Origin: Escherichia phage vB_EcoP-U8
DNA length: 40,294 nucleotides
Sequence record: MT862763.1
Direction: 5' to 3' (one strand)
Positions 35,074 through 37,197 of this stretch are shown in pieces (the first letter of the stretch is position 1; each line of letters starts with the position of its first letter). The position numbers and the translations under genes were made by a program. Below the pieces are notes generated by a model. It was not told the origin of the DNA. It did no database searches and saw nothing but the letters and a program-made list of their open reading frames with translations.

Positions 35074-36831
<1,758 letters not shown>

Positions 36832-36842
36832 TCACTCCTTAG

Positions 36843-36921
36843 TGGCGTCTCCACGGGGATTCGAACCCTAATCGCAATAGGCCATCACGACCCGCCGCTC
36901 TACCGTTTGAGCTATGGAGAC
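36843..36921 (-). tRNA. tRNA-like gene (anticodon arm atypical; possible anticodon CGU)
   Basis: RC: GTCTCCA TA GCTC AAACGGTA GAGC ... TAGGG TTCGAAT CCCCG TGGAGAC G CCA; perfect 7-bp acceptor stem, U8, canonical D-arm, T-loop and CCA; anticodon stem imperfect and region 3 nt longer than standard. Confidence 0.6.
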
Positions 36922-36966
36922 ATTTCTTAATCTCAAATGCGAACAAAGGGACAAGACTCGTGGTCT

Positions 36967-36989
36967 CATCCCTAAGGTGATAGTTTAGC
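36967..36989 (-). promoter_or_regulatory. Variant phage promoter upstream of tRNA-like gene and gene 4
   Basis: CCTAAGGTGATAGTTTAG at 36971..36988 (RC CTAAACTATCACCTTAGG, two changes at -4/-3). Confidence 0.55.
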
Positions 36990-37197
36990 TGAAGAAGCCT
37001 TTCAGTTGCTCGGCTTTCTTGTCAAGACCTTTGGCACGTAGGCCAGCGTCCAGAGACTTGATGCGCAGACTATCCGCTTCCGCAGCAGCCGCTTCCGCAC
37101 CTTTAGCCGCAGCAGATGCGACTTTTCGTTCCACACTCGCAGCACGAGAATAGCCACGCACAACCAGACGACCCAGAAATTCAATAAGTTTAATCAT
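36985..37197 (-). CDS. hypothetical Ala/Lys-rich small protein
   Basis: 70 aa ORF between amidase and gene 4. Confidence 0.5.
   Translation of the reverse strand: MIKLIEFLGRLVVRGYSRAASVERKVASAAAKGAEAAAAEADSLRIKSLDAGLRAKGLDKKAEQLKGFFS

What the first reader, a model, noticed from the sequence alone, without database searches (positions are those of the whole stretch)
36843..36921. tRNA-like gene immediately upstream of the primase-helicase gene, with an atypical anticodon arm
On the minus strand there is a perfect 7-bp acceptor stem, U8, a canonical D-arm (GCTC-AAACGGTA-GAGC), a GTTCGAATC T-loop and an encoded CCA. The anticodon stem pairs poorly and the molecule is about 3 nt longer than standard; the best fold gives anticodon CGU (Thr). 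tRNA genes are uncommon in T7-group phages. It lies between a variant phage promoter and the gene 4 RBS, so it would be co-transcribed with gene 4 and could be a functional tRNA, a processing signal or a decayed tRNA.
Basis: seen in the sequence. Interest (0 to 1): 0.55.

Follow-up and report, generated by a model that had tools for sequence, protein, structure and literature searches.

The report
Non-decoding tRNA-like cassette before gene 4
A K1F-type (T7-like) phage carries, just ahead of its primase-helicase gene, an optional 79-base RNA that keeps the upper half of a tRNA but has no usable anticodon, so it is most likely an RNA-processing signal or tRNA mimic, not a working tRNA.

Summary
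ARAGORN and Rfam both call a tRNA at 36843-36921 (-), and the acceptor stem, D arm, T loop and CCA are as described.

It is not a decoding tRNA. The predicted anticodon changes among near-identical copies (Thr, Met, Ser, "stop"). The proposed anticodon stems pair in only 72% or 37% of cells. A bulged 7-bp hairpin with a variable 5-nt loop pairs in 100% and has the lower energy in every variant. ACG is the phage's rarest Thr codon.

It is not a decaying relic either. Against the distant copy in Kosakonia phage Kc166A, neutral sites are near saturation (33-45% identity), yet the element is 80% identical and carries compensatory stem changes.

It is an 88-nt optional cassette, present in 34 of about 224 related records. 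It sits at an insertion hot spot between a weak phage promoter and the gene 4 Shine-Dalgarno sequence.

My best reading, not demonstrated, is a tRNA-like substrate of host RNase P that punctuates the gene 4 transcript and releases a small stable RNA.

GenBank records and one paper already call it a "pseudo-tRNA". No functional study was found.

Separately, I found an unannotated 68-nt tRNA-like element at the equivalent site in 145 Klebsiella and Raoultella T7-like phage records.

The parts
36969..36987 (-). Variant phage-RNA-polymerase promoter TAAACTATCACCTTAGGGA. The inferred +1 is the G at about 36972. It overlaps the stop codon of the upstream small ORF.
   Evidence: 7 matches on the minus strand against 0 expected. 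The six others read TWAACTATCACTATAGGRA; this one has CCTT in place of CTAT. The +1 position is inferred by analogy with T7-type promoters.
36948..36972 (-). Hairpin at the 5' end of the transcript, GGGAUGAGAC-CACGA-GUCUUGUCCC (10 bp).
   Evidence: present in both the MFE and the centroid fold. It is conserved in phages with and without the element.
36842..36929 (-). 88-nt optional cassette (the indel against related phages). It consists of AAAU, the 79-nt tRNA-like RNA, and CUAAG. It is bounded by a TAAG repeat, so its exact ends are ambiguous by 4 nt.
   Evidence: The empty site reads GATTAAG|GAGTGACCAATG, including in phages whose gp4 is 99% identical.
36922..36930 (-). Upstream repeat UUAAGAAAU, a degenerate copy of the gene 4 ribosome-binding sequence CUAAGGAGU (7 of 9 identical).
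   Evidence: Read from the sequence.
36843..36921 (-). tRNA-like RNA, 79 nt.
   Evidence: own covariance model, 107.7 bits.
36915..36921 (-). Acceptor stem, 5' strand GUCUCCA. It pairs with 36847-36853. U lies at -1 and G at +1.
   Evidence: helix 98% paired. pO91 has a compensatory change from U-A to C-G. Kc166A loses one base pair on both strands.
36897..36912 (-). D arm GCUC-AAACGGUA-GAGC (A14, G18, G19, A21).
   Evidence: The stem is invariant, including in Kc166A.
36874..36895 (-). Central arm that takes the place of the anticodon arm. Pairs 27-28/47-48, a 3-nt bulge, pairs 29-33/39-43, and a 5-nt loop GUGAU at 36884-36888.
   Evidence: (100% paired) against (72.5% and 37.5% for the anticodon-type stems); preferred energy in all variants. 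The loop varies: GUGAU, AUGAU, UUUAU, GUUAU, GUGAA.
36854..36870 (-). T arm UAGGG-UUCGAAU-CCCCG (G53, T54, T55, C56, A58 and C61 present; outer pairs are U.G and A/C).
   Evidence: Kc166A has a compensatory change from G-C to A-U.
36843..36853 (-). Acceptor stem 3' strand UGGAGAC, then discriminator G and the encoded CCA.
36835..36840 (-). Gene 4 Shine-Dalgarno sequence AAGGAG, beginning 2 nt after the CCA.
35128..36828 (-). Gene 4 primase/helicase (566 aa).
   Evidence: annotated as primase/helicase in all related records.
36985..37197 (-). Upstream small ORF (70 aa, gp3.7-like, function unknown).
   Evidence: phrog_1950, E 2.8e-23.

Best explanation
The element is a non-decoding tRNA-like RNA carried on an optional 88-nt cassette of K1F-type (Kayfunavirus) phages.

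Shown:
- It keeps the parts of a tRNA that processing enzymes recognise: a 7-bp acceptor stem stacked on a T arm, the D-loop/T-loop elbow, and G73-CCA.
- In place of an anticodon arm it has a bulged 7-bp hairpin capped by a fast-changing 5-nt loop.

Inferred:
- It is transcribed as part of the gene 4 leader, from the weak promoter 50 nt upstream and by read-through from the lysin region.
- Host RNase P cuts at U(-1)/G(+1), window position 36921.
- The host 3' tRNA-trimming enzymes cut back to the CCA at 36843.
- This would detach the 5' leader and upstream message from the gene 4 message, whose ribosome-binding site begins 2 nt later. It would also release a stable 79-nt tRNA-shaped RNA.
- It would then do at this junction what RNase III sites do in T7.
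For: 1. tRNA top half: intact and detected by two programs.
2. Central arm: not an anticodon arm. The hairpin model pairs in 100% of cells, against 72.5% and 37.5% for the two anticodon-type models. It is also energetically preferred in all 8 variants.
3. Anticodon call: unstable between copies.
4. Selection on structure:
 - pO91 has U2-A71 changed to C-G.
 - Kc166A has a T-stem G-C changed to A-U and has lost one acceptor pair on both strands.
 - Five substitutions in the central stem all keep pairing.
5. Selection on sequence: the element is 80% identical between the window and Kc166A. Four-fold degenerate sites of the flanking genes are only 45% and 33% identical.
6. Sequence features that favour bacterial RNase P are present: U at -1, the G1-C72 pair, and RCCA (the preference itself is established knowledge).
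7. Precedent: RNase P is known to process non-tRNA phage RNAs and mRNAs, including phage M3 RNA, the C4 RNA of P1/P7, and polycistronic mRNAs (PMC11143913).
8. Independent parallel: Klebsiella T7-like phages have a different 68-nt acceptor-plus-T-arm element with no anticodon loop. It follows the same order (promoter, 5' hairpin, tRNA-like element, Shine-Dalgarno sequence) between genes 3.5 and 4.
Against: - No cleavage or small-RNA data exist, so the RNase P step is inference only.
- The element is dispensable. It is absent from about 190 of 224 related records, including phages whose gp4 is 99% identical.
- Among close carriers it is no more conserved than the adjacent coding sequence (pi 0.019 against 0.025).
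- The long-range selection argument rests on one divergent homologue (Kc166A) plus pO91.
- The T stem has an A/C mismatch.
- Alternative folds compete: the cloverleaf is about 4.5 kcal/mol above the MFE of the isolated RNA, and the fold z-score is only -1.2.
- RNase E-type cutting just 3' of the CCA could damage the gene 4 ribosome-binding site instead of helping it.
Confidence: 0.45

Rival explanations
1. It is a non-functional relic. A tRNA gene was captured at a recombination hot spot, has lost its anticodon arm, and hitch-hikes with the 5' end of gene 4.
For: - The distribution is sporadic, and clean empty sites occur in very close relatives.
- Among carriers its diversity equals that of the neighbouring gene 4 sequence.
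- Several GenBank records label it tRNA-Pseudo or tRNA-OTHER.
- The same junction holds other optional cassettes: an HNH gene, a small ORF, and a nucleotidyltransferase gene.
Against: - Compensatory changes occur in the acceptor and T stems, and every central-stem substitution preserves pairing.
- The element is 80% identical to the Kc166A copy, while neutral sites are 33-45% identical.
- Substitutions cluster in the 5-nt loop instead of being spread evenly (4 of 11 events, binomial 0.004).
Confidence: 0.2
2. It is a trans-acting tRNA mimic. Once released, the RNA would act as a decoy or substrate for a protein that recognises tRNA shape, such as a host tRNA-targeting defence nuclease or toxin, or a tRNA nucleotidyltransferase. 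The variable loop would reflect an arms race.
For: - The loop is hypervariable on an otherwise fixed scaffold.
- It is an accessory gene-like cassette among other accessory cassettes.
- In Kc166A the element lacks an encoded CCA. It is followed at once by a 179-aa protein of the CCA-adding/poly(A)-polymerase type: phrog_1614 at 1.5e-28, motif GGCARD...KDWD, and a weak PcnB match.
- Phage tRNAs that defeat tRNA-cleaving defences are known. I state this from my own knowledge; it was not checked here.
Against: - About 195 other Autographiviridae records carry that nucleotidyltransferase at the same junction. The six I sampled have no tRNA-like element, so the pairing in Kc166A may be coincidence.
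- A 5-nt loop is unlike the 7-nt anticodon loops that the known anticodon nucleases cut.
- No target is identified.
Confidence: 0.15
3. It is a cis-acting translational element for gene 4. The folded tRNA shape would insulate or expose the Shine-Dalgarno sequence 2 nt downstream. Alternatively, its CUCC-containing 5' strand would pair with that sequence to tune gp4 synthesis.
For: - The Shine-Dalgarno sequence lies immediately next to the element, at the same spacing in Kc166A and, similarly, in the Klebsiella phage element.
- The upstream duplicated ribosome-binding copy has been inactivated (GGAG changed to GAAA).
Against: - Most relatives express gene 4 without it, using the identical ribosome-binding site.
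- In SH5 and Kc166A the element precedes a different ORF.
- This does not explain why tRNA-specific features (G18 G19, the T loop, CCA) are kept.
Confidence: 0.08
4. It is a genuine decoding tRNA (Thr-CGU or another specificity) with an unusual anticodon arm.
For: - ARAGORN calls it, and Rfam scores it above the gathering score.
- It has an encoded CCA and a canonical D arm and T loop.
- One GenBank record annotates it as tRNA-Thr.
Against: - The anticodon call differs among near-identical copies.
- The anticodon-stem models are poorly paired, and natural variants break them, including the base that would be U33.
- The Rfam score of 36.7 bits is only marginally above the cut-off of 29, and the Kc166A copy at 27.2 falls below it.
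- ACG is the rarest Thr codon in the phage, at 17%.
- tRNAscan-based annotations in GenBank say Pseudo or OTHER.
Confidence: 0.07

Closest known systems
'Pseudo-tRNA' / tRNA-OTHER annotations in kayfunaviruses (Kc166A, ST31, LM33_P1, DY1; GenBank records IME278, HC12, CHRF_3xxxx, vB_VIPECLMC06)
   Same: This is the same element at the same place, upstream of the primase/helicase gene. It is noted in one sentence of PMC8402661 and in several GenBank feature tables.
   Different: Those are bare predictor outputs with conflicting labels (Pseudo-GTG, OTHER, Thr). None analyses structure, distribution, selection or function. I could not locate the DY1 copy.
Non-tRNA substrates of bacterial RNase P in phages and operons (phage M3 RNA, C4 antisense RNA precursor of P1/P7, polycistronic mRNAs)
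   Same: These are acceptor/T-arm-like structures embedded in longer transcripts and cut by host RNase P to make defined RNA ends (list in PMC11143913). The layout here would allow the same reaction.
   Different: Cleavage is not shown here. This element is far closer to a full tRNA (D arm, elbow, CCA) than those substrates are. It also sits in the leader of a replication gene of a T7-like phage.
tRNA-like domains without an anticodon (tmRNA tRNA-like domain, plant-virus 3' tRNA-like structures)
   Same: These keep the acceptor stem, T arm and elbow, while the anticodon arm is replaced or missing.
   Different: There is no tag reading frame and no pseudoknot. ARAGORN finds no tmRNA. Nothing indicates aminoacylation.
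RNase III processing sites of T7-group phages (for example R3.8 in T7; R5 and R6 annotated in phage gh-1)
   Same: They occupy the same genomic niche: an intergenic processing signal next to a phage promoter between gene 3.5 and gene 4. The gh-1 annotation is; the T7 sites are from my own knowledge.
   Different: The fold is entirely different, and so is the presumed enzyme (RNase P, not RNase III). This element is optional.
68-nt tRNA-like element of Klebsiella T7-like phages (Przondovirus), found here
   Same: It follows the same order (promoter, 5' hairpin, tRNA-like element, Shine-Dalgarno sequence, ORF) between the lysozyme and primase genes. It has a 7-bp acceptor-like stem with U at -1 and G at +1, and a canonical T arm.
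   Different: It has no sequence similarity outside the T loop. It has no G18 G19 D loop, no CCA, and only a 4-bp mini-hairpin in the anticodon position. ARAGORN does not detect it, and the Rfam tRNA model gives no match (only a 15-nt match of the T arm to the tmRNA model). It is present in 145 records.

Membership tests
Canonical decoding (elongator) tRNA | 7-bp acceptor stem, U8, discriminator base, 3' CCA | tested here: met
   (acceptor helix 98% paired across 8 variants).
Canonical decoding (elongator) tRNA | D arm with A14, G18, G19 and A21; T arm with G53-T54-T55-C56-R57-A58 and C61 | tested here: met
   The two outer T-stem pairs are weak (U.G and A/C).
Canonical decoding (elongator) tRNA | 5-bp anticodon stem closing a 7-nt loop with U33 and a purine at 37 | tested here: not met
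   - The ARAGORN stem is 72.5% paired, and one of its pairs never forms.
- The tRNAscan-type stem is 37.5% paired.
- Seyj3-1 mutates the would-be U33.
- A hairpin with a 5-nt loop is 100% paired and lower in energy.
Canonical decoding (elongator) tRNA | The same anticodon in orthologous copies | tested here: not met
   One search gives cgt, cat, tga, tga and tta for the window, TM1, SH5, Kc166A and pO91.
Canonical decoding (elongator) tRNA | Covariance-model score in the range of real tRNAs | tested here: inconclusive
   The window scores 36.7 bits against a cut-off of 29. The Kc166A copy scores 27.2, below the cut-off.
Canonical decoding (elongator) tRNA | Aminoacylation and use on the ribosome | not testable with these tools
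   This needs charging assays or tRNA sequencing. The only indirect evidence is that ACG is the rarest Thr codon in the phage.
tRNA-like RNase P substrate embedded in a longer transcript | Acceptor stem coaxial with a T stem-loop; favourable U(-1)/G(+1) and 3' RCCA | tested here: met
   Read from the sequence and supported by the pair counts.
tRNA-like RNase P substrate embedded in a longer transcript | Lies inside a transcription unit, with no terminator before the downstream gene | tested here: met
   The promoter lies about 50 nt upstream. No terminator-like site is present.
tRNA-like RNase P substrate embedded in a longer transcript | Actual cleavage by RNase P in vivo or in vitro | not testable with these tools
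   No RNA-end data were found in the searched literature.
tRNA pseudogene (unconstrained relic) | Substitutions accumulate without regard to base pairing, at about the neutral rate | tested here: not met
   - Compensatory and pair-preserving changes are seen.
- Identity to Kc166A is 80%, against 33-45% at four-fold sites.
- The number of independent copies is small.
tmRNA | tRNA-like domain plus a tag-peptide reading frame | tested here: not met
   ARAGORN reports no tmRNA. Rfam's best match is tRNA.
Homing-endonuclease mobile cassette | An endonuclease gene travels with the element | tested here: not met
   An HNH ORF follows the element only in SH5. The window and the other carriers examined have none.

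The most novel reading that the evidence does not exclude
The released 79-nt RNA is a tRNA mimic that acts in trans. It would be a decoy or substrate for a tRNA-recognising host defence factor, or for a tRNA 3'-end nucleotidyltransferase such as the one encoded beside the Kc166A copy. Its hypervariable 5-nt loop would be the surface under an arms race. T7-like phages of at least two genera would then carry small tRNA-shaped counter-defence RNAs.
Probability: 0.12. Interest if true: 0.8.

Novelty: new member of a known kind. Interest (0 to 1): 0.45.

Why it matters
T7-group phages are the textbook case of messenger processing by RNase III, and they are generally said to lack tRNA genes.

A tRNA-shaped element that is under selection, cannot decode, and sits exactly between a phage promoter and a ribosome-binding site has two implications:
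- These phages may also use the host's tRNA-processing machinery to shape their messages, or may produce small tRNA mimics.
- The claim is cheap to test, because natural phages with and without the 88 nt exist in otherwise near-identical backgrounds.

Practical point: annotation pipelines label the element inconsistently (Thr, Pseudo, OTHER, or nothing). They miss the Klebsiella phage counterpart altogether.

Tried and rejected
1. Source tRNA. Pattern scans of IMG/VR and of 185,579 GTDB genomes returned only ordinary tRNAs and no close source.
 - Scans keyed on the D arm returned mostly tRNA-Trp.
 - Scans keyed on the acceptor and T arm returned mostly tRNA-Arg.
 - The best global match scored 31 on a +1/-1 alignment scale over 79 nt.
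 - E. coli genomes gave no match. Plasmids gave only a 26-nt chance-level match at E 0.06.
2. Metagenome scan. The pattern GGTAGAGCGGCNGGTCNNNNNGNCC was badly chosen.
3. "The element is more conserved than its flanks." This was my first impression from BLAST. It is rejected at short range: only the upstream gp3.7 region is variable, and the gene 4 side is as conserved as the element. The selection argument therefore rests on Kc166A.
4. Link to a homing endonuclease. The HNH gene is next to the element only in SH5.
5. Obligatory link to the CCA-adding-type nucleotidyltransferase. It was seen only in Kc166A. Six other phages carrying that enzyme have no tRNA-like element.
6. Codon-usage demand for ACG. 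None: ACG is 17% of Thr codons.
7. Other T7-like genera. Sixteen representatives gave no tRNA-like Rfam match.
8. tmRNA, an intrinsic terminator and a sigma-70 promoter were each looked for and not found.
9. The DY1 copy mentioned in PMC8402661 could not be located.

Full report
**What is there**

ARAGORN reports one tRNA in the 40,294-nt window, at 36843-36921 on the minus strand, called Thr(cgt). Rfam's tRNA model matches 36846-36921 at 36.7 bits (cut-off 29). It treats the anticodon-arm region as a 21-nt insert where the model expects 17.

The sequence is:
GUCUCCA-UA-GCUC-AAACGGUA-GAGC-G-GCGGGUCGUGAUGGCCUAUUGC-GAU-UAGGG-UUCGAAU-CCCCG-UGGAGAC-G-CCA

All predicted genes and all seven phage-type promoter matches lie on the minus strand. 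The promoter in front of the element, TAAACTATCACCTTAGGGA at 36969-36987, differs from the six others (TWAACTATCACTATAGGRA). No terminator-like site follows it. The gene 4 Shine-Dalgarno sequence AAGGAG starts 2 nt after the CCA.

**Whose genome this is, and how the element is distributed**

The window is a Kayfunavirus, a K1F-like member of the T7 group. The 601 nt around the element are identical in Escherichia phage vB_EcoP-22664BS1.

About 224 phage records match the flanks. Only 34 contain the element. Of 80 T7-like gene-4 loci fetched from IMG/VR, only the ST31 copy has it.

Phages whose gp4 is 99% identical read ...GATTAAG|GAGTGACCAATG at the empty site. The window has 88 extra bases there (36842-36929), bounded by a TAAG repeat. 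The upstream repeat, UUAAGAAAU, looks like an inactivated copy of the ribosome-binding sequence CUAAGGAGU.

The same junction holds other optional inserts:
- an HNH endonuclease gene after the element in SH5;
- a 63-aa ORF flanked by duplicated GGAGTGACCRATG in two IMG/VR phages;
- a 179-aa nucleotidyltransferase gene after the element in Kosakonia phage Kc166A.

The element is therefore one of several cassettes exchanged at a recombination hot spot.

**It is not a decoding tRNA**

- *Unstable anticodon call.* ARAGORN assigns Thr(cgt) to the window, Met(cat) to TM1, Ser(tga) to SH5 and Kc166A, and a stop anticodon (tta) to pO91. These copies differ by only a few bases.
- *Pair counts on eight distinct variants.* The ARAGORN anticodon stem pairs in 72.5% of cells, one of its pairs never forms, and another is broken in two variants. 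The stem implied by the GenBank 'Pseudo(GTG)' call pairs in 37.5%. A hairpin made of pairs 27-28/47-48, a 2-3-nt bulge, pairs 29-33/39-43 and a 5-nt loop pairs in 100% of the inner-stem cells.
- *Energy.* The hairpin is the lower-energy option in every variant. It is also the fold of the isolated central segment in seven of the eight variants, Kc166A among them; in 101120B1-2 the outer pairs shift.
- *Natural substitutions.* The five stem substitutions (C28U, G29A, U32C, and G40A twice) all preserve that hairpin. U32C removes what would be the universal U33 of the ARAGORN model.
- *Loop variation.* The remaining changes fall in the loop: GUGAU, AUGAU, UUUAU, GUUAU, GUGAA. That is four of eleven events in 5 of 79 positions (binomial 0.004).
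- *Codon usage.* ACG, the codon a CGU anticodon would read, is the rarest Thr codon in the phage at 17%.

**It is not simply decaying**

- pO91 carries a two-sided change in the acceptor stem, U2-A71 to C-G.
- Kc166A carries a two-sided change in the T stem, G-C to A-U. It repairs the A/C mismatch to A-U. It has lost one acceptor base pair on both strands, so the helix stays in register.
- Between the window and Kc166A, four-fold degenerate sites are 45% identical in gene 4 and 33% in the lysin gene, which is close to saturation. The element is 63/79 identical, and the D arm and T loop are unchanged.

Two cautions apply. Among the close carriers the element is no more conserved than the first 400 nt of gene 4 (pi 0.019 against 0.025). 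The case for selection therefore depends on few lineages.

**How it most likely works (inferred, not shown)**

The conserved part is what tRNA-processing enzymes read: the acceptor/T-arm stack, the elbow formed by the G18-G19 and T loops, U at -1, the G1-C72 pair, and G73-CCA. RNase P is known to cut such shapes inside phage and operon transcripts (PMC11143913).

I therefore propose that RNase P cuts at 36921 and that host 3' trimming stops at the CCA. This would free a 79-nt RNA and separate the leader and upstream message from the gene 4 message.

This is the role RNase III sites play at the same place in T7-type genomes. Sites R5 and R6 are annotated nearby in phage gh-1; the T7 sites I know from memory.

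I put 0.45 on this mechanism. I put about 0.75 on the narrower claim that this is a structured, non-decoding tRNA-like RNA under selection.

**An independent parallel**

A covariance model built from the eight variants gave weak hits in a different group of T7-like phages.

Inspection showed a 68-nt element in Klebsiella phages that carry the K11-type promoter:
GGUCAGG-CUAAGGUGCACUUGG-C-GUAGCGCUGCGYUUC-A-UUCGGGUUCGAUUCCCGGA-CUGACC-ACACC

Its features are:
- a 7-bp acceptor-like stem preceded by U;
- two small hairpins;
- a canonical T arm;
- no anticodon loop and no CCA.

It lies in the same order as the window element: promoter, 5' hairpin, element, Shine-Dalgarno sequence, then a small ORF that differs between phages. 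It sits between the lysozyme and primase genes.

It occurs in 145 Klebsiella and Raoultella phage records and is never annotated as an RNA. ARAGORN and the Rfam tRNA model give no match; only the T arm gives a 15-nt match to the tmRNA model. Sixteen representatives of other T7-like groups showed nothing similar.

Two unrelated tRNA-shaped elements in the same niche, neither able to decode, favour a structural role.

**Rivals**

- *Neutral relic (0.2).* This fits the patchy distribution but not the substitution pattern.
- *Trans-acting decoy or enzyme substrate (0.15).* This would explain the variable loop and the accessory status. It is hinted at by Kc166A, where a copy lacking the encoded CCA is followed by a protein with the GGxxRD...D.D motif of CCA-adding and poly(A) polymerases. 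However, about 195 Autographiviridae records carry that enzyme at this junction. The six I sampled have no tRNA-like element.
- *Cis translational effect on gene 4 (0.08).*
- *Real tRNA (0.07).*

**What is already known**

GenBank records label the element tRNA-OTHER, tRNA-Pseudo(GTG), tRNA-Thr, or leave it unannotated.

One paper notes a 'pseudo-tRNA' at this position in Kc166A, DY1, ST31 and LM33_P1 (PMC8402661). Searches found no functional or structural study. I could not locate the DY1 copy.

No source tRNA was found in phage, bacterial, E. coli or plasmid collections. One metagenome scan was wasted on a poor pattern.

**Verdict**

The Thr-tRNA reading is rejected.

The element is best filed as a new, uncharacterised member of the known class of tRNA-like structural RNAs. 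Its likely role is as an RNase P processing signal in the gene 4 leader.

Interest is moderate. It is raised somewhat by the evidence of selection, by the natural presence/absence pairs that make it easy to test, and by the second, unannotated family in Klebsiella phages.

Noticed in passing
L288:888-955 (+); also 19 other IMG/VR loci (L285-L328) and 145 GenBank Klebsiella/Raoultella phage records, e.g. KX591654.1 10974-11046: An unannotated 68-nt tRNA-like element lies between the lysozyme and primase genes of Klebsiella T7-like phages (Przondovirus). It has a 7-bp acceptor-like stem, a canonical T arm UCGGG-UUCGAUU-CCCGG and two mini-hairpins, with no anticodon loop and no CCA. It sits just after a K11-type promoter and just before the Shine-Dalgarno sequence of a variable small ORF. 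ARAGORN and Rfam tRNA do not report it.
   Followed up: partly
L001:694-1233 (+) = Kosakonia phage Kc166A MW258709.1 12317-12856: The 179-aa ORF directly after the Kc166A copy of the element is a short nucleotidyltransferase. It carries the GGCARD...KDWD motif of CCA-adding and poly(A) polymerases (phrog_1614, 1.5e-28). Homologues occupy the same gene 3.5/4 junction in about 195 Autographiviridae records (Pseudomonas, Dickeya, Pectobacterium and Klebsiella phages). The Kc166A tRNA-like copy lacks an encoded CCA.
   Followed up: partly
window 36826-36842 and the equivalent site in L266, L268, L004, L001: The sequence TAAGGAGTGACCRATG (ribosome-binding site plus start codon of gene 4) is duplicated at both ends of several different inserts: a 63-aa ORF, an HNH gene and a nucleotidyltransferase gene. 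The conserved ribosome-binding site therefore seems to serve as the recombination joint for swapping cassettes at this junction.
   Followed up: partly
window 36969-36987 (-) and 36832-36841 (-): The two bases that make this promoter a 'variant' (CACCTTA in place of CACTATA) create UCACCUUA. This can pair with the gene 4 Shine-Dalgarno region UAAGGAGUGA in read-through transcripts, and the pairing appears in the MFE fold of the 159-nt context. It is conserved in phages with and without the element.
   Followed up: no
L424 and L430 (LM33_P1, HC12), locus positions 1-346: In LM33_P1-type carriers the small gp3.7-like ORF is missing, and the lysin gene ends directly at the promoter. The region upstream of the element is therefore itself mosaic (pi up to 0.5), while the element and the 5' end of gene 4 are nearly identical.
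   Followed up: no
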